A stretch of DNA of 64,000 bases, from the NCBI GenBank assembly GCA_007376405.1, contig VMGD01000003.1, positions 336 through 64,335 on the forward strand, given 5' to 3'. The first letter of the stretch is position 1; the number at the start of each line of letters is the position of its first letter. Both the position numbers and the translations under genes were made by a program. This document shows, piece after piece, positions 1-8,139 of this stretch. The notes below the pieces were generated by a model that saw nothing but the letters and a program-made list of their open reading frames with translations, was not told the DNA's origin and searched no databases. Source of the DNA: Microgenomates group bacterium Gr01-1014_7. GTDB taxonomy: Bacteria > Patescibacteriota > Microgenomatia > Daviesbacterales > UBA10151.

Positions 1-135
1 TAGACTTTAAAACAAAACTCTTCACCTTTTCTCCTGCCAATATTGCTCAAAAACTAGAAGCCGAGTACCTGTCTGGTGGGGTGCTCCCAGTGAAAGACAT
101 ATTTGCTGAGTACAACTTTTTAAAAGATCTGTTAT

Positions 136-2310
136 TTGACCGAGAAACCAATGGAGAAAAATATGAGCTACCTATCTAATCACGGTATTTCCAAAGACCA
201 ACAACAAAAGTTTGGCATCATTGAAGACACTGATAAGGTCACATTTCCCTATAAAGACAAGGAGGGTAATTTCCTTTTCAATAAATATCGCCATCTTGAT
301 CAAAGATCCTTGGAAAATGGTAAAAAATTTAGCTTTAGTTCTGGATATAAACCTGTTCTATTTAATATTCAGGCATTAGATCAGGATTATGTTGTATATG
401 CAGAAGGAGAACCAGATGTTGTCAGATCAGATCAAGAAGGCATCCCTACTGTATCTGGAAGTACAGGGGCAGCTACTTTTAATAAAGATTGGGTACCAGA
501 TTTTATAGGCAAAAGAGTGTATATCTGCCTAGATAATGATGATACTGGTCGAGAGGGGGCTCGGAAAGTTGCAGAACTATTATTAAGAGGAAGTGTGGAA
601 GAAGTTTACCAGTTAACACTTCCAGAAGATTGCAAGGACATATGTGAGTTTTATAGTAAGGGTCACACAAAAGAAGAATTTCTCAATTTACTAGAAAACG
701 CCCAGAGGGCTAAGCTGGAAGATTTTAAAGATACCCAAAACCAAGATGACTCACTGGAAGATGAGTCTGGAGATAAAGAAGAGAATGAGTCCATCACGAA
801 ACAGGTAATTAAGTTAGTTTTAGAAAGCGGAGCTAAATTATTTCATGATCAATTCAATGATTCATATTTAGCTCCAACTGGAAATGGTCAGTTAGTTTTT
901 CGGTTAAAATCTAAACAGGCAAAAAGCTGGCTAAGTTATCTTACTTGGAAATATATTGGATTATCCTTAAGCTCACATCCCCTCAACTCAACAATTCTAA
1001 CCCTTGAGGCTATGGCTTGTTATGAAGGACCACAGATCTCGTTAGCTATTAGAGTAGCCAAAGAGGGAGAGATTATATGGTATGACTTAGGAGGTAAAAC
1101 AATTAAAATTACTTCTGAAGGCTGGGACATTGTCGAAGAATCACCCATCTTATTTAGGCGTTTCCCTCATCAAAAATACCAGATTGAGCCCAAGAGTGGT
1201 AATAAATTAGATGAATTATTAGATTTTATTAATTTAGAACGACAAGCTGATGGAAGGTTGAGCGACGAACAACTACTGACACTTTGTTGGTTAGTATTTG
1301 GTTTAGTACCAGGGCTGCCCCACCCAGCTCTAGTTCTATATGGTTCACAAGGGTCTAAAAAGACTACTCTACATAAGATTTTAAAAGAGCTTCTTGATCC
1401 ATCTTCAATAGAGGTTAATGGTAGCCAGAAAAATATAACTGAGTTTGTCCAAACAGTTTCCCACCACTGGTTTTTAGTCCTTGATAATATGACTTATCTA
1501 CCAGAGTGGCTTTCGGATGCCATGTGCAGGGTTATCAGTGGAGGCGGACTTTCTAAAAGAGAGTTGCATTCCGACGACGATGATATACTCTACAACTTCC
1601 GACATATTGTAGGCATAAATGGGATTAATTTAATGATCGAAAAGGCAGATCTCTATGAACGCTCCCTTATATTTGTACTCAAAAGAATTAAAAAGTTTAA
1701 AACAGAAAAATTGTTCTGGGCTCAGTTTGAAGAGAGAAAACCCTACATTTTAGGAGCGTTATTTGACACATTAGTTAAGACACTGCAAATAATCTCTACT
1801 ACTCCAGAACCAGAAGGGGAATTTAGAATGGCTGATTTTGCCCATTGGGGACCAACCATAGCTCAAGCTCTAGGTTATGAGGCAAATGATTTTCTGAAGG
1901 CATATAAAGCTAATATTTATAAACAAAACAAAGAAGCTCTTGAAGCTAGTCCAGTCGGATTAGCTGTAATAGACCTCATGTCTGACCAAGACCGCTGGAG
2001 CGGAACTCCCACTGAACTATTATCAGAATTAGATAAGATTGCCCTTAAGCTCCGCATAGACCAAGATCATAAATCATGGCCAAAAGATGCTAGGTGGGTA
2101 TGGCGACGTATTAGCGAGGTATTACCAAACCTTGAAGAGGAAGGTATTAAAGCTAGTAAGGGCAAGGATGACGCTAGGTTGATAATCCTTGAGAAGACCC
2201 TAACAAATGATGTCGGTAATGACAATGATGGCGGTCAGATTCCTAATAATCAGGTTCAATCGGACATTAAAGACAACAAAGGCGACATTTTTGGGGGAGG
2301 GGTGGATTAG
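136..2310 (+). CDS. Primase-helicase of a mobile element: N-terminal Toprim (DnaG-like) primase domain fused to a P-loop NTPase (D5/VirE-like)
   Basis: Toprim acidic motifs (YAEGEPDV, CLDNDDTGREGA); Walker A GSQGSKKT further downstream; this architecture is typical of phage/plasmid primase-helicases. Confidence 0.6.
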   Translation: MTEKPMEKNMSYLSNHGISKDQQQKFGIIEDTDKVTFPYKDKEGNFLFNKYRHLDQRSLENGKKFSFSSGYKPVLFNIQALDQDYVVYAEGEPDVVRSDQEGIPTVSGSTGAATFNKDWVPDFIGKRVYICLDNDDTGREGARKVAELLLRGSVEEVYQLTLPEDCKDICEFYSKGHTKEEFLNLLENAQRAKLEDFKDTQNQDDSLEDESGDKEENESITKQVIKLVLESGAKLFHDQFNDSYLAPTGNGQLVFRLKSKQAKSWLSYLTWKYIGLSLSSHPLNSTILTLEAMACYEGPQISLAIRVAKEGEIIWYDLGGKTIKITSEGWDIVEESPILFRRFPHQKYQIEPKSGNKLDELLDFINLERQADGRLSDEQLLTLCWLVFGLVPGLPHPALVLYGSQGSKKTTLHKILKELLDPSSIEVNGSQKNITEFVQTVSHHWFLVLDNMTYLPEWLSDAMCRVISGGGLSKRELHSDDDDILYNFRHIVGINGINLMIEKADLYERSLIFVLKRIKKFKTEKLFWAQFEERKPYILGALFDTLVKTLQIISTTPEPEGEFRMADFAHWGPTIAQALGYEANDFLKAYKANIYKQNKEALEASPVGLAVIDLMSDQDRWSGTPTELLSELDKIALKLRIDQDHKSWPKDARWVWRRISEVLPNLEEEGIKASKGKDDARLIILEKTLTNDVGNDNDGGQIPNNQVQSDIKDNKGDIFGGGVD

Positions 2311-2509
2311 AGCGATGATTAGTGCTGAGGCTGTTGAAGAGTTTAAAAGGCTATATTTCAGAGAGCATGGTATGAAACTTACCAATGAACAGGCAGTAGA
2401 CATGGGGAATAAACTTATTAGGCTAGTCAAGGTCGTTTTTGGCCCTAATCTACCTGAAGAATGGAAACCCCAGAAACTTGACTCTGTAGGGCCTAAAAAG
2501 GTACGATAA
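2207..2509 (+). CDS. Small hypothetical protein of the mobile element (true start probably internal, around 2316)
   Basis: ORF only; overlaps the primase 3' end. Confidence 0.2.
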   Translation: MMSVMTMMAVRFLIIRFNRTLKTTKATFLGEGWIRAMISAEAVEEFKRLYFREHGMKLTNEQAVDMGNKLIRLVKVVFGPNLPEEWKPQKLDSVGPKKVR

Positions 2510-2513
2510 TTCT

Positions 2514-4340
2514 ATGAATACTGCAGATTTTGTTCTAACCTATGGTGCCTATTCCAGAAGATCCTCTGAAGATTATGAGGATCGCCAAGTTGCTTCAATC
2601 GAAAGCCAGGAAAGAGAATTAAAGGAAGTTAAAGAAAGGTTAAACCTTAATGTTAAACAGCTTGTTTCAGAGTCGAGAAGTGCCCATACCATAGGACGTC
2701 CAGTATTTAATCAGCTTTTGGCTGACCTAGAAGATGGAGTAATAAATGCCATTTTAACCTACCACCCAAATCGTTTGTGCCGAAACGCATTTGACGCAGG
2801 AAGGCTGATTTATTTAATGGACGAGGGTAAACTCTTAGAGATTAGAACTCCATCACGAGTCTTTAAAAATACACCAGAAGATAAATTTATGCTTAATCTT
2901 GAGTTTGGGATTAGTAAAAAAGACAGTGACGACAAATCTGTGGTGGTCAAAAGAGGGCTTAGAAATAAGATAGAGCTAGGCTGGAGACCAGGTGTGGCTC
3001 CACATGGCTATCTGAATGATCGAGCTACAGAATCGGGCCACCGTAGAATATTAATTGACCCAGAAAGATTTGAGTTTATTAAACAAATATTTCAACTCAA
3101 ATATAAAGGTGTTCCAACTATGGAGATTCTTAGAATTGTCAATGAAGATTGGAAATTTAAAACTAGACCAAAAAAAAGATACCCTTCAGAACCACTTTCC
3201 TGCAGTAGTCTTTATAAGCTTTTAGGCAATCCTTTTTATTGTGGTAAATATTTTTATAGTGGGCAGTGGCATGAAGGAGCTCACGAGAAAGCTGTTGAAC
3301 CAGACATTTTTGACCAAATACAGATAATGTTAGGAGATAAAGGTTGCAGAAGACAACCAAAAACTCATGAATTTGCTTATACAGGAATGGTTAGATGTGG
3401 TGAATGCTCTGGTATGGTTACGGCTGAGGAGAAATGGCAAATAATTTGTTCAAAATGCAGGAATAAGTTTGCTCTGACAAGAAAAAACAGTTCTATATGT
3501 CCAGAATGTAATACTTTAATTGAAGAGATGGATCAACCAAGGATTTTGTACTACTCTTATTATCATTGCGGGAAAAAGATAAAACCCTGTTCTCAAAAAT
3601 CAATTGAAGTTACTGATCTTGAAGAACAAATCCAATTAATATTGGGTAGTATTGAGATTTCAGATTTTTTCTTATCTTGGGCTGTTGCAGAAATCCATAA
3701 GGATTTAGAGTCTGAAAAGGATTTTAGGGAGGATAAGGTTAAATCTGTACAAAGAGCTCATGAGGAATGCAGGTCTAAACTAGATAACCTGCTTAAGCTC
3801 AAAATTTCTCCTCTTAATTCTGATGGTAGTTTGATGAGTGATGAGAAGTTTAAGACCGAAAAACAGGCTCTAGAGACCGAATTAACAGGGTTGGAGAAAC
3901 AATTAAACGAAGTTGACAATAGGATGATACAAAAGGCTCAGGAAGCTGTGGATAAGTTTGATTTTGCTGCTAACGCCAAGGCTAGATTTGAAACTGATGA
4001 TCTGGCTGTTAAACGTGAGATACTTTCAACTCTTGGGTCGAACCTTACCTTAAAAGATAAAAAACTGGATTTACAGCCTCATCCAATACTCAACGCTATT
4101 AAAAAGATAAGGGAGGAAGAACCAAAAGTATCAAGAGGAGTAGAACCTTCAAATCAGCCTTTCACAAAAGCCCAAATGGATGCCTTTTACTCCTCAAATA
4201 TCACCGTGTTGCGGGGGCGGGAGTCGAACCCGCTGCCTCAAGATTATGCACTTAACTTGCATTACTGCAAGGGTAGGACTATATCATCACCCTGTACCGG
4301 ACGGTACGGGGCCCGGCGTGTAGTCTCTACGGGGTCCTAG
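2514..4340 (+). CDS. Large serine recombinase (phage-type integrase)
   Basis: N-terminal resolvase-type catalytic region (YSRRSSEDYEDRQVASIESQ); recombinase domain; Cys-rich zinc ribbon (CGECSG...CSKC...CPEC); C-terminal coiled-coil. The annotated 3' end reads through tRNA exon 2 and intron sequence on the opposite strand, so the true stop is uncertain. Confidence 0.7.
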   Translation: MNTADFVLTYGAYSRRSSEDYEDRQVASIESQERELKEVKERLNLNVKQLVSESRSAHTIGRPVFNQLLADLEDGVINAILTYHPNRLCRNAFDAGRLIYLMDEGKLLEIRTPSRVFKNTPEDKFMLNLEFGISKKDSDDKSVVVKRGLRNKIELGWRPGVAPHGYLNDRATESGHRRILIDPERFEFIKQIFQLKYKGVPTMEILRIVNEDWKFKTRPKKRYPSEPLSCSSLYKLLGNPFYCGKYFYSGQWHEGAHEKAVEPDIFDQIQIMLGDKGCRRQPKTHEFAYTGMVRCGECSGMVTAEEKWQIICSKCRNKFALTRKNSSICPECNTLIEEMDQPRILYYSYYHCGKKIKPCSQKSIEVTDLEEQIQLILGSIEISDFFLSWAVAEIHKDLESEKDFREDKVKSVQRAHEECRSKLDNLLKLKISPLNSDGSLMSDEKFKTEKQALETELTGLEKQLNEVDNRMIQKAQEAVDKFDFAANAKARFETDDLAVKREILSTLGSNLTLKDKKLDLQPHPILNAIKKIREEEPKVSRGVEPSNQPFTKAQMDAFYSSNITVLRGRESNPLPQDYALNLHYCKGRTISSPCTGRYGARRVVSTGS

Positions 4341-4469
4341 TGTTAATCGAAGGACTTCCCTCGGTATTACCCTAATAGGGTTTCACCGATATAGCCAAGT
4401 TCTCTCCGATAGTTACCCATCGGAGGGCCCATATTTGAGCCTTGTGTGCAGCCGTTACACTTCCCCGCG
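4209..4469 (-). tRNA. tRNA-Met(CAU), initiator type (C1.A72 mismatch, CGCGGGG...CCCCGCA-A like E. coli tRNAfMet), interrupted by a group I intron. Exon 1 is 4438..4469 and exon 2 is 4209..4248
   Basis: Minus strand reads CGCGGGG-AA-GTGT-AACGGCT-GCAC-A-CAAGG-CT|intron|CATAA-TCTTG-AGGCA-GCGGG-TTCGACT-CCCGC-CCCCGCA-A. Anticodon is CAT. T-arm is perfect. The 5' exon ends in U, as a group I splice site requires. Confidence 0.7.
4249..4437 (-). ncRNA. Group I self-splicing intron (about 189 nt, no ORF) inserted between nt 33 and 34 of the tRNA-Met anticodon loop
   Basis: Minus strand carries canonical R-like (GTAGAGACTACACG) and S-like (GATATAGTCC) core elements forming P7. An internal guide GGCC can pair with exon ...GGCU (P1, with U.G). 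The intron ends in G (omega-G) before the CAT anticodon. Confidence 0.75.
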
Positions 4470-4530
4470 ATATTTAAAAGAACAGACTGTATTTTAACTT
4501 TACTTTTAGTTTATGTCAATTAAAATATGC

Positions 4531-4559
4531 TTGACAACGTATTCGAAATAATGTAATGT
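4531..4559 (+). promoter_or_regulatory. sigma70-like promoter (TTGACA, 17 bp spacer, TAATGT) for the HTH-LAGLIDADG gene
   Basis: Read directly from the sequence. Confidence 0.4.
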
Positions 4560-4588
4560 GGATATACATCCCATATAACAGTAATTCT

Positions 4589-5266
4589 ATGAAACGTAAA
4601 ATTGAAGAATACAAACGGGCATTAATATTAAGAGGAAAGGGTAAAAGTATTAAACAAATAGCAAGAATACTGGGAGTAAGCGTGAGTATTGTGAGCGTGT
4701 GGTGCAGGGGAGTAAGGCTTACTGACAAGCAAATAGAGAACTTAAAAAGAAGAAAAATAAGAATTAGACATTTAAGGAAATTGGCTAGACAAAGTCATTT
4801 GGAAAAAGTAAAAAGAGTACAAAAACTTTTTCAAATCGCCAAAGCTGAAGTTGGCCCTCTTTCTGATAGGGAAATCTTCTTAACAGGGCTTGCACTTTAT
4901 TGGGCAGAAGGCTTTAAAAGTTTAAAGGAAGCTAGATTAGGCTTCTGTAATTCTGATCCTGCTATGATAAAGTTTATAATTAGATGGCTCAAAAAAGGCT
5001 TAAAAGTAAAGCAGGAAGATTTCATTTTAAGGACTGAATTTAATCTTTCACATAAAGATAGAGAGGAAGAAATTAAAATTTATTGGTCCAAAATTACAGG
5101 CGTACCCTTAACTCAATTTGAAAAACCATTTTACCATCAATCAAACTGGTTAAGAGAATATCCTAGTAGGGATAATTATTTTGGAGTTTTAAGAATCAGG
5201 GTGCGTAAAAGCAGTGAATTATTAAATAAAATGAGGGGATGGATAAGCGGTTTAGCGGTAATTTAG
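4589..5266 (+). CDS. HTH domain fused to a single-motif LAGLIDADG-like homing-endonuclease domain (ORF track starts at 4556)
   Basis: N-terminal HTH (SIKQIARILGVSVSIVSVW); motif FLTGLALYWAEGF resembles the LAGLIDADG block (compare LIGYYLAEGS in the intein of this window); paralogous to 7362..8111. Confidence 0.5.
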   Translation: MKRKIEEYKRALILRGKGKSIKQIARILGVSVSIVSVWCRGVRLTDKQIENLKRRKIRIRHLRKLARQSHLEKVKRVQKLFQIAKAEVGPLSDREIFLTGLALYWAEGFKSLKEARLGFCNSDPAMIKFIIRWLKKGLKVKQEDFILRTEFNLSHKDREEEIKIYWSKITGVPLTQFEKPFYHQSNWLREYPSRDNYFGVLRIRVRKSSELLNKMRGWISGLAVI

Positions 5267-5284
5267 CAATGATATAATCTAATT

Positions 5285-5803
5285 ATGAAAGTAGTTTTAT
5301 CCGTAGCCACTTCTCTAAACGGAATAATTGCTACGGAAGACGGAAGTGAAGATTTTTTATCTCATGAAAATTGGTTAGCATTTGTTAAATTAGCACAGAA
5401 AATTGGCAATAATATTTGGGGACGAAAAACATACCAAACTGTAAAAAATTGGCCAAAAGAATATTTTAATAGCCTAAATAGTGTAGTAAAGGTTATTATT
5501 TCAACGGATGAATCGTTGGAATTATTGCCTGGTTTTACAAGAGTTAGTTCTCCACAGGAAGCAATAGGCTATCTATCTAGTCAAGGTTTTAAAGAAGCGC
5601 TTGTGACGGGAGGGAGCACAATCTACAGTAGTTTCCTAAGGGAAAATTTAGTAGACGAGATTATCGTTGATGTTAATCCAACTATATTAGGCAAGGGAAT
5701 AGCAGCTTTTGATTTTGAAGGATCAATAGTTCGAATGAAGCCAATAAAAGTAAAGAAACTGAAGGATGGGATAATGGAGATATATTATAAAGTATTAAAA
5801 TAG
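5285..5803 (+). CDS. RibD C-terminal domain / dihydrofolate-reductase-like reductase
   Basis: Length and motif pattern (LNGIIATEDGS...LVTGGSTIY) typical of the PF01872 family. Confidence 0.45.
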   Translation: MKVVLSVATSLNGIIATEDGSEDFLSHENWLAFVKLAQKIGNNIWGRKTYQTVKNWPKEYFNSLNSVVKVIISTDESLELLPGFTRVSSPQEAIGYLSSQGFKEALVTGGSTIYSSFLRENLVDEIIVDVNPTILGKGIAAFDFEGSIVRMKPIKVKKLKDGIMEIYYKVLK

Positions 5804-5870
5804 ACTTCAAAAATTGAAAAATTTTGTTCGTCTGCTTGACTACATTAATCGCTTGATCTACTCTTAAATT

Positions 5871-7238
5871 ATGACCAGAAAACTGCTCAAAAAAGTGGCT
5901 GAAGCCCCGGCTGTAGCTCTGGAGCAGAGCATTAATACTTCAAGAAGACTAGTTAAAGCATTCAGAAATCAAAAAGAGGTGGTTAAAGCCAGAAGTTACT
6001 GGAAAACTCTGGGTCCGGGTTTAACAACAGGTGCTGCGGATGATGACCCTTCAGGAATTGCAACTTATTCCCAGGCAGGCGCAGGATACGGGTTTAATTT
6101 TTTATGGACTGCTGCCTTTACCTTTCCTTTCATGGCCATTGTTCAGGAGATGTGTGCCAGAATTGGTCTTGTTACAGGCAGGGGTTTGGCAGGGTCAATC
6201 AGATTATTTTTCCCCAAATGGGTTTTATATACCTGTACTCTTTTGCTTTTTGCAGCCAATTCCTTAAACATTGGAGCGGATTTAGGGGCAATGTCCAAAG
6301 CTACCCAGCTTTTATACCCTAATTTTAATTTTGAATTTTTGGTTTTGGCATTTGCCCTTTTTAGTCTGGCCCTTCAGATTTTTACCACCTATGAAAAGTA
6401 CGCCAAATACTTGAAATGGTTGGCTTTGGTACTTCTGGCTTATGTATTTTCAGCGCTATCAGCCAATTTAAACTTTGAGGAGATTGCCATGAATGCGGTT
6501 TTACCCTCAATTAAGTTTAGCAAAGACCAGATATTCATGATTACGGCCATATTGGGTACAACTATTTCTCCATATTTATTCTTCTGGCAAACTTCCCAGG
6601 AAGTGGAAGAGCAGATACTGGGTGGAAGAACAACTTTAAAACTGCGTGAGGGTGCTACAGATAAGGAAATTTCCGATATGAGGCTGGATGTATGGTCAGG
6701 TATGTTTTTATCAAATTTGGTTATGTTTTTTATTATTGCCGCATGTGGAGCAATTTTATTTCCGGCCGGCATCACAACTATTACTTCTGCCGGGCAGGCA
6801 GCAGAGGCCTTAAGGCCCTTTGCAGGGGACTTTTCATATCTGCTTTTTGCAGTAGGGATTATTGGCACAGGTCTTTTGGCAATTCCCATTCTGGCAGGAT
6901 CAGCTTCATATGCGCTATCTGAAAGTTTTGGATGGAAATCCGGGCTTTACAGAAAGCTAAAAGAAGCCAATGCTTTTTATGGCACAATCATTATCTCCAC
7001 TTTAATTGGCCTGGGGATTAATTTTATTGGATTTGACCCAATTAAGACTTTAATTTATTCCGCTGTGATAAATGGTTTAATTGCTCCTGTTATTTTAGTT
7101 TTAATTATTTTATTGAGTAACAGTAAAAAAGTTATGGGGGAGCGGGTCAATAACCCCGCTATTACTGCTTTAGGCTGGTTTATTACATTAGTTATGATCG
7201 TGGCAGGAGCCGCAACTATATCTTCGCTCCTTCCTTAA
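5871..7238 (+). CDS. mntH: NRAMP-family divalent metal (Mn2+/Fe2+) transporter
   Basis: GPGLTTGAADDDPSGIATYSQAGAGYGF signature region; about 11 TM helices. Confidence 0.75.
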   Translation: MTRKLLKKVAEAPAVALEQSINTSRRLVKAFRNQKEVVKARSYWKTLGPGLTTGAADDDPSGIATYSQAGAGYGFNFLWTAAFTFPFMAIVQEMCARIGLVTGRGLAGSIRLFFPKWVLYTCTLLLFAANSLNIGADLGAMSKATQLLYPNFNFEFLVLAFALFSLALQIFTTYEKYAKYLKWLALVLLAYVFSALSANLNFEEIAMNAVLPSIKFSKDQIFMITAILGTTISPYLFFWQTSQEVEEQILGGRTTLKLREGATDKEISDMRLDVWSGMFLSNLVMFFIIAACGAILFPAGITTITSAGQAAEALRPFAGDFSYLLFAVGIIGTGLLAIPILAGSASYALSESFGWKSGLYRKLKEANAFYGTIIISTLIGLGINFIGFDPIKTLIYSAVINGLIAPVILVLIILLSNSKKVMGERVNNPAITALGWFITLVMIVAGAATISSLLP

Positions 7239-7325
7239 AAGAGAAATAATTGTTTGAACAAATAATCAGATGGTCCAATAAAGTAATGCCTAAAATTTCT
7301 CCTGCAGCCTGAACTCTTTTGATAC

Positions 7326-7355
7326 TTGACTTCCAAATAAAACCCGTAATATACT
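7326..7355 (+). promoter_or_regulatory. sigma70-like promoter (TTGACT, 17-18 bp spacer, TATACT)
   Basis: Read directly from the sequence. Confidence 0.35.
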
Positions 7356-7361
7356 GGAAGT

Positions 7362-7520
7362 ATGGCAAAATCTCTTTTAAGATTGGAAGCACATAAACTA
7401 CGTAAGAAGGGTATAAGTGTTAGAAAAATCGCCCAAACACTAGGTATTTCTAAAAGTACAATAAGTCATTGGACAAGGGATATTATCTTAACGGTAGAAC
7501 AGCTAGAGGCGCTTAGATAA
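7362..7520 (+). pseudogene. HTH module (52 aa) of the second HTH-LAGLIDADG paralog, ending at an in-frame TAA (7518-7520); the LAGLIDADG module continues in the same frame
   Basis: MAKSLLRLEAHKLRKKGISVRKIAQTLGISKSTISHWTRD... is homologous to the N-terminus of 4589..5266; 7362 and 7566 are in the same frame. Confidence 0.45.
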
Positions 7521-7565
7521 TCAACTATAAAAGGTGCAGAACTAGGTCGTTTAAAAGGGGCCTTA

Positions 7566-8111
7566 ATGCAGAAAAAGAGAAGATTAAGAATGGTTGAGGA
7601 GGCAAATAAAGCAGGAATCGATTTTTTATCTTCACTCACAGAACGAGAATTCTTAATAGCAGGTTTGGCGCTCTATTGGGGAGAGGGACACAAAAAGAGT
7701 CGTAATAGGGTTGGATTTTGTAATTCTGATCCTAAGATGATAAAATTCTTAATACTTTGGTTGGTTAAGTATTTAGGAGTAAAACTTGCCGATTTAAGAT
7801 GTAGAGTTGGAATTAATGTCATTCATACCAAAAGAGAACAAGTAGTAAGAGAATATTGGTCTAAGATAATTGGTATACCATTAAGCCAATTTAATAGTAC
7901 CAGCTTTAAAAAAGTTAATAACAAAAAGATTTATGAAAATTTTAATGAGCATTATGGAACTTTAGATATAGGTGTGGTGAAACCTACGCCTCTTTATTAT
8001 AGAATAATGGGTTTGATCGAGGGTTTAGCATGCCAGGGTAGCTCAGTGGGAGAGCACAGGATTCATATCCCTGCGGTCGCGAGTTCGATCCTCGCCCCTG
8101 GTACAAATTAA
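7566..8111 (+). CDS. LAGLIDADG-like module of the second paralog; no stop before the tRNA-Met gene, so the ORF reads through it to TAA at 8112
   Basis: LIAGLALYWGEGHK motif; colinear similarity to 4589..5266 up to ...GLA, after which the ORF continues across 8032..8103. Confidence 0.45.
   Translation: MQKKRRLRMVEEANKAGIDFLSSLTEREFLIAGLALYWGEGHKKSRNRVGFCNSDPKMIKFLILWLVKYLGVKLADLRCRVGINVIHTKREQVVREYWSKIIGIPLSQFNSTSFKKVNNKKIYENFNEHYGTLDIGVVKPTPLYYRIMGLIEGLACQGSSVGEHRIHIPAVASSILAPGTN
8032..8103 (+). tRNA. tRNA-Met/Ile2-type (anticodon CAU), intronless
   Basis: GCCAGGG-TA-GCTC-AGTGGGA-GAGC-A-CAGGA-TTCATAT-CCCTG-CGGTC-GCGAG-TTCGATC-CTCGC-CCCTGGT-A. Perfect T-arm and D-arm. G1.U72 and an A31.C39 mismatch make it slightly atypical. 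Confidence 0.6.
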
Positions 8112-8139
8112 GTTAAAAGTGTAAAGTTAAAAGTGAAAA

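What the first reader, a model, noticed from the sequence alone, without database searches (positions are those of the whole stretch)
4531..8114. Paralogous HTH+LAGLIDADG-like genes flank both tRNA-Met(CAU) genes
Two paralogs (4589-5266 and 7362-8111) share an N-terminal HTH and a single LAGLIDADG-like block (L[TA]GLALYW[AG]EG). One sits about 120 bp from the 5' end of the intron-containing tRNA-fMet, divergently. The other lies immediately upstream of, and co-oriented with, the intronless tRNA-Met(CAU). Free-standing homing-endonuclease-like genes anchored at tRNA-Met loci suggest either tRNA-gene-targeted homing or a link to intron mobility at the initiator tRNA. The region 1-5270 looks like a pile-up of selfish elements at one tRNA locus: integrative element, intron, HEG.
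Basis: partly seen in the sequence, partly recalled or inferred. Interest (0 to 1): 0.7.

Follow-up and report, generated by a model that had tools for sequence, protein, structure and literature searches.

The report
Endonuclease-like genes partnered with tRNA intron
Two related genes in this candidate-phylum bacterium belong to a large, undescribed family with a homing-endonuclease fold that sits beside an intron-carrying initiator tRNA gene in nearly every relative examined and is nearly always absent where the intron is absent, which suggests how "ORF-less" tRNA introns in these bacteria could still be mobile.

Summary

Comparative data change the picture. In relatives without the intron, tRNA-fMet and tRNA-Met are divergent neighbours 50-177 bp apart. 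The family gene is a ~0.7-kb insert in that spacer. Every A- or B-clade copy with readable upstream sequence lies in a locus with the intron, except one; only 2 of 120 intronless loci carry any family gene. Filled and empty states are interspersed on a host-marker tree. A third clade sits upstream of tRNA-Ile(UAU).

Best reading (about 0.5): a free-standing LAGLIDADG-type homing endonuclease, or its recent descendant, forms a two-part cassette with the ORF-less intron, as in phage "collaborative homing"; the intron protects the cell's own initiator tRNA gene. Cleavage is untested. The rivals are a splicing cofactor and a WhiA-like regulator.

The parts
4210..4248 (-). tRNA-fMet 3' exon (39 nt, starts with the anticodon CAU, ends CCCCGCA)
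   Evidence: Sequence read. An nhmmer model of the tRNA plus intron spans 4469-4210. An intronless allele with the same anticodon arm and acceptor ends, differing only in the T-arm, occurs in metagenome locus L144.
4249..4437 (-). ORF-less group I intron (189 nt) inserted between tRNA positions 33 and 34
   Evidence: Rfam RF00028 scores 73.7 bits against a gathering score of 50, E 1.5e-17. The 5' exon ends in U and the intron ends in G. This is the insertion site reported for cyanobacterial tRNA-fMet introns (PMC13011429).
4438..4469 (-). tRNA-fMet 5' exon (32 nt, CGCGGGG...AAGGCU)
   Evidence: The exon alignment across 20 loci shows compensatory changes in the anticodon stem.
4491..4519 (-). 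Promoter-like site for tRNA-fMet (TTGACA-17-TAAAAT, 11 of 12 matches) in the 119-bp divergent spacer
   Evidence: A TTGACAT box lies at the corresponding place upstream of the tRNA in L001 and L004.
4589..5266 (+). Paralog A, intact, 225 aa. HTH at aa 5-38, long helix at aa 46-87, LAGLIDADG-fold domain at about aa 91-225 (4859-5263). The motif GLALYWAEG is at 4886-4912, with Glu107 at 4907-4909.
   Evidence: The protein is 100% identical to P0001, an uncharacterised protein of Microgenomates group bacterium Gr01-1014_7.
7326..7355 (+). Promoter-like site upstream of paralog B (TTGACT-18-TATACT, 10 of 12 matches)
7362..8031 (+). Paralog B, same architecture as A, motif GLALYWGEG at 7662-7688, interrupted by one nonsense codon. 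The open frame then continues through the tRNA to 8111.
   Evidence: Intact orthologues of 225-237 aa are up to 81% identical.
7518..7520 (+). In-frame TAA in paralog B, at a position where orthologues have Gln
8032..8104 (+). tRNA-Met(CAU), intronless. Its 5' end abuts the end of B.
   Evidence: ARAGORN and Rfam tRNA at 61.5 bits. In relatives the family ORF stops inside this tRNA at nt 8-10 or 19-21.
136..4340 (+). Context only: a Toprim-domain protein (136-2310), a small ORF, and a large serine recombinase (2514-4340). They occupy the place where relatives have XerC-DivIC. The recombinase ORF overlaps the tRNA 3' exon and about 90 nt of the intron on the opposite strand.
   Evidence: Pfam Toprim_2, Resolvase and Recombinase. 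Synteny in relatives. No repeat of the tRNA 3' end elsewhere in the window.

Best explanation
Paralogs A and B belong to a large, unnamed family found here in Microgenomates (CPR) genomes. Its members are free-standing, single-motif LAGLIDADG-fold proteins with an extra N-terminal HTH.

Shown:
- The gene is a ~0.7-kb insert in the short spacer between the divergent tRNA-fMet and tRNA-Met genes.
- Filled loci (intron and gene) and empty loci (neither) alternate among close relatives.

Inferred mechanism. The protein dimerises through its LAGLIDADG helix, and the invariant Glu binds the catalytic metal. It cuts intronless tRNA-fMet genes at or near the anticodon-loop DNA, which is a natural pseudo-palindrome. 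Repair from a filled allele would then copy in the intron and, with a long enough conversion tract, the neighbouring gene. This is the 'collaborative/trans homing' known from phages. The intron splits the presumed target and so protects the cell's only initiator tRNA gene. That would explain why the gene is almost never found beside an intronless allele.

In this window A is the intact copy. B is a redundant second paralog left next to tRNA-Met and has just acquired a nonsense mutation. A secondary host-useful role, in splicing or promoter control, is compatible with this reading and is not excluded.
For: Fold and motif:
- The domain-only AlphaFold model has pLDDT 91.4 and pTM 0.83.
- The first helix of the domain ends at a Glu-Gly that is invariant in 73 A and B sequences. 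The Glu-Gly is also present in the three clade C sequences read.
- A weak PADLOC 'HEase' hit (E 0.03) falls on the motif region.

Linkage to the intron:
- 78 of 80 genome loci have the intron-containing tRNA-fMet within roughly 150 bp upstream of the gene. The other two are cut by contig ends.
- 10 of 10 further loci fetched through clade B proteins show the same arrangement.

Empty sites:
- Only 2 of 120 metagenome loci with an intronless tRNA-fMet of this type carry any family gene.
- In 26 of them tRNA-fMet and tRNA-Met are divergent neighbours 50-177 bp apart.
- L090 and L172 keep the window's synteny (neighbouring proteins 71-76% identical) but lack both intron and gene.
- In L064 (filled), 786 bp stand where L128 (empty) has 42 bp.

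Repeated joint gain or loss:
- On a tree of the neighbouring XerC, filled and empty loci are interspersed at the tips. Every intron-plus locus has an A or B gene, and no intron-minus locus does.
- A sample chosen through XerC alone gave 2 filled, 3 empty and 1 with the intron only.

Signs of selfish-gene dynamics:
- Degenerate copies exist: the nonsense codon in window B and HTH-less 176-aa remnants in L071 and L084.
- Clades A and B occupy the same site in genomes whose flanks are about 82% identical.
- The single gene found beside an intronless allele (L179) lies next to a tRNA with a substitution in the anticodon stem.
- One relative's intron (L073) has been entered by a canonical LAGLIDADG ORF, so this intron site is used by homing-type genes.

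Precedent: free-standing endonuclease plus ORF-less intron systems are reviewed in PMC3984707. See also PMC2790892 and PMC6083498.
Against: - No cleavage, target site or homing event has been shown.
- Sequence profiles do not recognise the domain. No Pfam LAGLIDADG hit appears in 36 + 10 members at the thresholds used. There is no PDB sequence hit. hhalign against a canonical LAGLIDADG ORF gives probability 0.05.
- The gene tree groups largely by named lineage (Davies-, Levy-, Woese-, Gottesmanbacteria).
- Intron identity follows XerC identity (r = 0.48) with no large outliers. Inheritance therefore looks mostly vertical, or exchange occurs only between close relatives.
- Roughly 95% of the copies are intact, which is more than expected for a purely selfish gene after fixation.
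- Because intron and gene lie only about 150 bp apart, ordinary allelic recombination would also keep them together.
- Clade C sits beside an intronless tRNA-Ile(UAU) with no visible protective change.
- The family is absent from IMG/VR viral contigs.
- Most intron-plus loci were found through the gene. The intron-without-gene class is therefore under-sampled, and it does exist (L216).
Confidence: 0.5

Rival explanations
1. Splicing cofactor (maturase-like). The protein binds the pre-tRNA-fMet and helps the small group I intron fold and splice. It is kept by the host because the only initiator tRNA depends on it. Endonuclease activity is lost or secondary.
For: - LAGLIDADG proteins are the classical group I maturases, and a bacterial example is cited in PMC3984707.
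- Gene and intron co-occur tightly.
- Copies are mostly intact, and the gene tree broadly follows taxonomy.
- Intron and gene are lost together in empty alleles.
Against: - L216 keeps a 98%-conserved tRNA and intron with no family gene within 4.5 kb.
- L071 and L084 keep the intron with a truncated gene.
- Maturases that gave up cleavage usually lose the catalytic acid (own knowledge of the bI3 maturase). Here the Glu is invariant.
- The N-terminal HTH is of the resolvase/transposase DNA-binding type.
- Clade C accompanies a tRNA that has no intron.
- This model does not by itself explain how a gene and an intron are gained together at a fixed site.
Confidence: 0.2
2. Domesticated DNA-binding factor, WhiA-like. 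A former endonuclease now acts as a sequence-specific regulator of the divergent tRNA-fMet and tRNA-Met promoters. The clade C paralog would do the same for tRNA-Ile(UAU). Each regulator is encoded next to the tRNA gene it controls.
For: - The gene sits on the promoter spacer of two tRNA genes.
- All three clades are tied to a tRNA gene, including tRNAs without an intron.
- The family is large and mostly intact and is absent from viral contigs.
Against: - Regulation gives no reason for the gene to be missing exactly where the intron is missing, yet this holds in close relatives with the same tRNA genes and synteny.
- WhiA lacks the catalytic acids (own knowledge, Kaiser et al. 2009); here Glu-Gly is invariant.
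- The architecture differs from WhiA: one domain, with the HTH at the N-terminus.
- Very many relatives manage these tRNA genes without it.
Confidence: 0.15
3. Ordinary HTH regulators whose position near tRNA genes is historical accident. On this view the LAGLIDADG resemblance is a generic alpha/beta sandwich.
For: - Sequence libraries see only the HTH.
- Foldseek against the PDB gave no significant hit.
Against: - The motif helix ends in an invariant acid followed by Gly.
- All 100 distinct copies with readable flanks are tRNA-adjacent.
- Gene presence follows intron presence.
Confidence: 0.03

Closest known systems
[quoted passage not shown] Examples are F-CphI next to psbA in cyanophage S-PM2 and mobE with the I-TevIII intron in T4 (PMC3984707, PMC6083498, PMC2790892).
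   Same: [quoted passage not shown]
- The intron sits in a highly conserved gene at a site that would split the presumed target.
- Filled and empty alleles coexist among relatives.
   Different: - The known cases are in phage genomes and use Endo VII-like or HNH enzymes.
- Here the setting is a cellular chromosome, the host gene is the sole initiator tRNA, and the enzyme fold is LAGLIDADG with an added HTH.
- The gene is wedged between two tRNA genes.
- Cleavage has not been demonstrated here.
I-Ssp6803I and the cyanobacterial tRNA-fMet group I intron
   Same: Same host gene and same insertion position, 33/34 in the anticodon loop (PMC13011429). A homing endonuclease specific for the tRNA-fMet anticodon region is an established concept.
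   Different: - I-Ssp6803I is encoded inside the intron and is a PD-(D/E)XK enzyme.
- Here the intron is ORF-less and the candidate enzyme is a flanking LAGLIDADG-fold protein.
- Whether the two introns are homologous was not tested.
Homodimeric single-motif LAGLIDADG homing endonucleases (I-CreI, I-CeuI, I-MsoI, I-Vdi141I, I-TnaI) and archaeal I-DmoI/I-Tsp061I
   Same: - One motif per chain.
- The helix ends in an acidic residue followed by Gly.
   Different: - There is no detectable sequence-profile similarity.
- An extra helix lies between the third and fourth strands.
- An N-terminal HTH and a 40-residue helix are added.
- The gene is free-standing rather than intron- or intein-encoded.
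WhiA (DUF199), a domesticated LAGLIDADG plus HTH transcription factor
   Different: - WhiA has two degenerate LAGLIDADG domains followed by a C-terminal HTH and lacks the catalytic acids (own knowledge).
- This family has one domain preceded by the HTH and keeps the acid.
- No WhiA Pfam or NCBIfam hit was found.
LAGLIDADG group I intron maturases (I-AniI, the bI3 maturase, the Thermotoga 23S intron protein)
   Same: A LAGLIDADG-fold protein genetically tied to one particular group I intron.
   Different: - The known maturases are intron-encoded and mostly have two domains.
- Here the protein is encoded outside the intron.
- Paralogs also accompany tRNAs that have no intron.

Membership tests
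LAGLIDADG endonuclease superfamily (fold level) | Alpha-beta-beta-alpha-beta-beta-alpha core with the motif helix at the N-terminus of the domain | tested here: met
   [not shown]
LAGLIDADG endonuclease superfamily (fold level) | Motif helix ending in a conserved Asp or Glu followed by Gly (the metal ligand) | tested here: met
   Glu107-Gly108 is invariant in 36 and in 73 aligned members. It is also present in the three clade C sequences read. The model helix ends at this Glu.
LAGLIDADG endonuclease superfamily (sequence families) | Significant match to Pfam LAGLIDADG_1, _2, _3 or LAGLIDADG_WhiA | tested here: not met
   No such family was listed for A or B at E <= 10. None is among the 25 families most often matched by the 36 members, and none appears for 10 divergent members at E <= 0.1. 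A canonical intron ORF from L073 does hit PF14528 and PF00961, which serves as a positive control.
LAGLIDADG endonuclease superfamily | Site-specific double-strand DNA cleavage leaving 4-nt 3' overhangs | not testable with these tools
   This needs purified protein and an intronless tRNA-fMet substrate.
Free-standing homing endonuclease with collaborative homing | Presence/absence polymorphism of the gene at one fixed site among related genomes | tested here: met
   Filled and empty loci are interspersed on the XerC tree. Insert boundaries were defined in L064 against L128 and in L038 against L092. Empty syntenic loci are L090 and L172.
Free-standing homing endonuclease with collaborative homing | The gene travels with an ORF-less intron that interrupts a conserved candidate target nearby | tested here: met
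   78 of 80 plus 10 of 10 gene-bearing loci have the intron. Only 2 of 120 intronless loci have any family gene. The XerC-chosen sample was 5 of 6 concordant.
Free-standing homing endonuclease with collaborative homing | [quoted passage not shown] | not testable with these tools
   Inference only.
Free-standing homing endonuclease with collaborative homing | Horizontal spread, seen as gene or intron phylogeny incongruent with the host | tested here: inconclusive
   Clades A and B alternate at the same site in close relatives. However, the gene tree broadly follows taxonomy and intron identity follows XerC identity with no strong outliers.
WhiA | Two degenerate LAGLIDADG domains followed by a C-terminal HTH, with the catalytic acids lost | tested here: not met
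   There is one domain, the HTH is N-terminal and the acid is kept. No WhiA family hit was found.
Group I intron maturase | The protein is required for, or stimulates, splicing of its cognate intron and so is never missing where the intron is present | tested here: inconclusive
   Co-occurrence is strong, but L216 has the intron and no gene within 4.5 kb, and L071 and L084 have truncated genes. RNA binding and splicing cannot be tested here.
Group I intron (Rfam RF00028) in tRNA-fMet | Covariance-model score above the gathering threshold, U before the 5' splice site, terminal G, and exons that join into a complete tRNA | tested here: met
   73.7 bits against a threshold of 50. Splice-site nucleotides were read. 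The joined exons have the anticodon arm and acceptor ends of the natural intronless allele L144, differing only in the T-arm.

The most novel reading that the evidence does not exclude
The family may not be selfish at all. On this reading it is a set of gene-linked, tRNA-dedicated factors derived from a LAGLIDADG endonuclease. One paralog would serve each of the three tRNAs that read AUG and AUA: initiator Met, elongator Met and Ile-UAU. Each would be encoded immediately upstream of its client and would act on the tRNA gene or precursor, in splicing of the initiator intron, in 5' processing, or in promoter control. Initiator tRNA supply in these reduced genomes would then be governed by a protein-plus-ribozyme module.
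Probability: 0.15. Interest if true: 0.85.

Novelty: new variant of a known kind. Interest (0 to 1): 0.66.

Why it matters
Group I introns are unusually common in Patescibacteria tRNA genes. A 2026 survey concluded that most of them lack homing endonuclease genes and therefore have limited mobility (PMC13011429). That survey looked only inside the introns.

The data here show that the tRNA-fMet intron of Microgenomates is regularly accompanied by a flanking gene with an endonuclease fold. The pair behaves as one presence/absence cassette. If the protein cuts intronless alleles, three things follow:
- It would be, as far as I know and as far as the library searched here shows, the first collaborative-homing system in a cellular chromosome.
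- It would be such a system aimed at an essential single-copy tRNA gene.
- It would give a natural snapshot of the proposed route by which free-standing endonucleases and ORF-less introns become composite mobile introns.

The finding also defines a large protein family with no Pfam or NCBIfam model for its main domain: 1,884 clusters at 50% identity. It adds a compact HTH-plus-LAGLIDADG scaffold that may recognise a tRNA-gene sequence. It also flags a systematic annotation gap, since the initiator tRNA is missed by standard tRNA finders in these genomes.

Tried and rejected
Searches that gave nothing for the C-terminal domain:
- Pfam and NCBIfam on both paralogs found only HTH families. The same held for 36 family members and 10 divergent members.
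- PDB sequence searches with one protein and with a profile found nothing for the domain.
- hhalign of the family profile against the canonical LAGLIDADG ORF of L073 found no similarity.
- PHROGs gave only HTH matches. PADLOC gave only a weak 'HEase' hit. A defence-system reading was dropped.
- The viral contig scan found no relatives. A phage-borne origin was dropped.

Tests that were uninformative:
- ARAGORN with intron search mislabels the split tRNA-fMet as Leu, Ser or Met, so it was replaced by an nhmmer model built from 20 loci.
- I looked for long-range horizontal transfer of the intron by comparing intron identity with XerC nucleotide identity over 170 pairs. There were no convincing outliers.
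- I compared tRNA-Ile(UAU) sequences with and without the clade C gene to look for a protective change. None was seen.
- I searched the window for a repeat of the tRNA 3' end that would bound the integrative element. None was found.

Readings considered and rejected:
- That B's TAA is a recoded codon. Orthologues have Gln there, A and the neighbouring genes read normally with table 11, and I know of no TAA reassignment in this group.
- That adjacency to tRNA-Met means the elongator tRNA gene is targeted. The empty-site structure explains the adjacency.

Full report
**Source and observation**

The window comes from a CPR metagenome-assembled genome. Paralog A is 100% identical to an uncharacterised protein of 'Microgenomates group bacterium Gr01-1014_7'.

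Paralog A (4589-5266, 225 aa) is intact. Paralog B (7362-8111) lies in one reading frame but contains a TAA at 7518-7520. The two are 40% identical over 214 residues, E 7e-50.

Pfam and NCBIfam recognise only an N-terminal helix-turn-helix of the resolvase/transposase kind (HTH_7, HTH_23, HTH_38). They find nothing in the C-terminal 135 residues.

ARAGORN reports a single tRNA in the 64 kb, tRNA-Met(CAU) at 8032-8104. Rfam finds a group I intron at 4255-4447 on the minus strand, at 73.7 bits against a gathering score of 50. Reading the sequence gives:
- a 32-nt 5' exon at 4469-4438, ending in U;
- a 189-nt intron at 4437-4249, ending in G;
- a 39-nt 3' exon at 4248-4210, beginning with CAU.

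The joined exons form a tRNA with the C1:A72 mismatch of bacterial initiators (own knowledge of initiator identity). The insertion point is 33/34, the same as in cyanobacterial tRNA-fMet introns (PMC13011429). A starts 119 bp from the tRNA 5' end on the other strand. B runs straight into tRNA-Met.

**Is the C-terminal domain LAGLIDADG?**

Sequence methods say nothing:
- no Pfam LAGLIDADG match in 36 members or in 10 divergent members at the thresholds used;
- no PDB sequence match;
- no hhalign similarity to a canonical LAGLIDADG ORF.

The first helix of the domain carries GLALYWAEG and ends at Glu107-Gly108. This pair is invariant across clades A and B and is present in the three clade C sequences read. 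This is where LAGLIDADG enzymes carry their metal-binding acid. From my recollection of the I-CreI sequence, the invariant Asp123 of 'GFCNSDP' falls at the position of I-CreI Gln47; this was not verified here. Each chain has one motif, so by analogy the active form would be a homodimer (inference).

**Family size and distribution**

- Searches with A and B returned 255 and 508 clusters at 90% identity. Most are 225-237 aa and come from Davies-, Levy-, Woese-, Gottesman-, Ames-, Roizman- and Shapirobacteria.
- An exhaustive HMMER search with the domain found 1,884 clusters at 50% identity with E <= 1e-3. These include two-copy fusions of 424-560 aa and forms of about 170 aa without the HTH.
- None was found in IMG/VR viral contigs.
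- I found no paper describing the family.

**Genomic context in relatives**

In 78 of 80 loci from species-representative genomes, an intron-containing tRNA-fMet lies roughly 50-150 bp upstream of the gene. It is usually divergent and co-oriented in 7. The two exceptions are cut by contig ends.

In about half of the loci a tRNA-Met(CAU) follows within 0-100 bp. Often the ORF's stop codon lies inside the tRNA, at nt 8-10 or 19-21. The three reading frames are all used in different lineages, and window B uses the frame that has no stop.

A neighbour-joining tree shows three clades:
- Clade A is next to the intron-bearing tRNA-fMet.
- Clade B includes window B and is always directly upstream of tRNA-Met. 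In single-gene genomes it also faces the intron-bearing tRNA-fMet.
- Clade C lies 8-23 bp upstream of tRNA-Ile(UAU) in 9 of 9 copies.

Over 100 distinct copies, every one with a readable flank is tRNA-adjacent.

**The empty site**

Only two of these carry any family gene:
- L179 has a clade B gene beside an intronless tRNA-fMet that has a G27:A43 mismatch in the anticodon stem.
- L178 has a clade C gene 2.3 kb away, next to tRNA-Ile.

In 26 intronless loci, tRNA-fMet and tRNA-Met are divergent neighbours only 50-177 bp apart. The family gene is therefore an insert of about 0.7 kb in that spacer, with its end against tRNA-Met. This explains why members 'flank both tRNA-Met genes'.

Pairwise comparisons define the insert. 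In L064 (filled), 786 bp stand where L128 (empty) has 42 bp, and the intron is the only other difference. Daviesbacteria-like loci L090 and L172 keep the window's gene order (DivIC, tRNA-fMet, Nramp, tRNA-Met, NTP-transferase). Their neighbouring proteins are 71-76% identical to the window's, yet they have neither intron nor gene.

**Repeated joint gain or loss**

On a tree of the adjacent XerC recombinase (100 loci), filled and empty loci are interspersed down to the tips. All intron-plus loci have an A or B gene, and no intron-minus locus does.

Most intron-plus loci were found through the gene, so I drew a sample through XerC homologues alone. Two loci had intron, A and C. Three had no intron and no family gene. 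One (L216) had the intron but no gene. Relative to L217, L216 lacks exactly 775 bp, which is the gene plus its spacer. The tRNA and intron are 98.2% identical between the two, while the flanks are 86% identical.

Clades A and B can occupy the same site in genomes whose flanks are about 82% identical (L026 versus L209).

Degenerate copies exist. Window B has a CAA->TAA change relative to orthologues. L071 and L084 have HTH-less remnants.

One relative (L073) carries a canonical 168-aa LAGLIDADG ORF (PF14528, PF00961) inside the intron, in addition to the flanking family gene.

**Interpretation**

The anatomy matches the collaborative, or trans, homing arrangement described for phages. [quoted passage not shown]

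This model explains four observations:
- the LAGLIDADG fold with a retained acid;
- the cassette-like presence or absence at a fixed site;
- the near absence of the gene beside intronless alleles, because self-cleavage of the only initiator tRNA gene would be lethal;
- the occasional intron-only locus, which could arise from loss of the gene or from a short conversion tract.

The anticodon arm is a natural pseudo-palindrome in DNA. It would suit a homodimeric enzyme (inference).

The steps that are shown are the fold, the linkage, the polymorphism and the degenerate copies. The steps that are inferred are dimerisation, cleavage, target identity and biased conversion.

**Evidence against, and the rivals**

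- The gene tree broadly follows named lineages.
- Intron identity follows XerC identity (r = 0.48 over 170 pairs) without strong outliers.
- About 95% of the copies are intact.
- Two indels only about 150 bp apart would also co-segregate under plain homologous exchange of alleles.
- Clade C accompanies an intronless tRNA with no visible protective change.

A maturase-like splicing cofactor and a WhiA-like regulator of the divergent tRNA promoters therefore remain possible (promoter-like sites at 4519-4491 and 7326-7355). A bifunctional protein would reconcile much of the data. The regulator model does not explain the intron correlation. The maturase model is weakened by L216 and by the truncated copies.

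**The window itself**

In this lineage Nramp and a RibD_C/DHFR-like gene separate the two tRNA genes. A stayed with tRNA-fMet and B stayed with tRNA-Met. Where relatives have XerC-DivIC at the tRNA-fMet 3' end, the window has a Toprim protein and a large serine recombinase. This is consistent with an integrative element whose left end lies outside the window.

**Verdict**

I classify the finding as a new variant of a known kind: a new protein family and architecture, in a new setting for collaborative homing. Interest 0.66.

Noticed in passing
L010 147-827, L013 7208-7732 (minus strand), L055, L064 190-864, L067, L178 3993-4562, L206 1506-2210, L217 5781-6473, L218 6897-7589: A third clade of the family (C) lies 8-23 bp upstream of, and co-oriented with, an intronless tRNA-Ile(UAU) in 9 of 9 distinct copies. 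It occurs in genomes with and without the tRNA-fMet intron. The family therefore accompanies all three tRNAs that read AUG and AUA.
   Followed up: partly
window 7990-8111; L019 4630-4750; L179 820-960; L068 530-660: Family ORFs end inside the downstream tRNA-Met: a TAG at tRNA nt 8-10, a stop at nt 19-21, or, as in window B, no stop until after the tRNA. If gene and tRNA are co-transcribed, 5' processing of the tRNA would remove the stop codon. A -10-like TATAAAAT or TAGAAT lies in the ORF 3' end upstream of the tRNA (about 27 nt in the window, 8000-8005). It may be an embedded tRNA-Met promoter.
   Followed up: partly
L073 595-1101 (minus strand), inside the tRNA-fMet intron at 505-1230: One relative's intron contains a canonical single-motif LAGLIDADG ORF of 168 aa with LAGIIDGEG (Pfam LAGLIDADG_3 at 1.9e-6, LAGLIDADG_1 at 5.4e-6). 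The flanking family gene is also present at 1359-2033.
   Followed up: partly
L179 925-1590 (minus strand) and the tRNA-fMet at about 1690-1765: This is the only family gene found directly beside an intronless tRNA-fMet. That tRNA has a C-to-A change giving a G27:A43 mismatch in the anticodon stem (TCTTA instead of TCTTC). It could be a resistant target variant, but it is a single case.
   Followed up: no
L216 3534-4050 compared with L217 2160-3212: L216 has the intron without the family gene. A 775-bp segment (gene plus spacer) is missing, while the tRNA and intron are 98.2% identical between the two loci and the flanks are 86% identical.
   Followed up: partly
window 136-4340: A Toprim-domain protein, a 100-aa ORF and a large serine recombinase (Resolvase plus Recombinase domains) replace the XerC-DivIC neighbours seen in relatives at the 3' end of tRNA-fMet. 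This is probably an integrative element. The recombinase ORF overlaps the tRNA 3' exon and about 90 nt of the intron on the opposite strand. No repeat of the tRNA 3' end occurs in the window.
   Followed up: partly
L001 4671-4961, L172 376-600, L144 501-728, L120 8356-8583, L220 3708-3962 and others: A small GIY-YIG-domain gene (84-96 aa) is a recurrent neighbour of tRNA-fMet in Daviesbacteria-like loci, in both filled and empty states. In empty loci it lies about 30-50 bp from the tRNA 5' end. The window lacks it.
   Followed up: no
P0388, P0391, P0397, P0453, P0455, P0464; P0383, P0398, P0417 and similar: The family includes proteins of 424-560 aa with two matches to the domain. In some of those scanned (for example P0397) HTH matches also occur at two separate positions, which suggests fusions of two full copies. 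It also includes forms of about 170 aa that lack the HTH.
   Followed up: no
window 4210-4469 and the homologous sites in L001-L085: Standard tRNA finding misses the initiator tRNA in these genomes. With intron search switched on, ARAGORN labels it Leu(CAA/UAA), Ser or Met with wrong boundaries. Genome annotations of these organisms will appear to lack tRNA-fMet.
   Followed up: yes
window 1-64000: GC skew is positive in almost every 1-kb bin (cumulative skew rises steadily to about 9.7 and turns only near 62 kb). In the first 10 kb the long ORFs are all on the plus strand.
   Followed up: no
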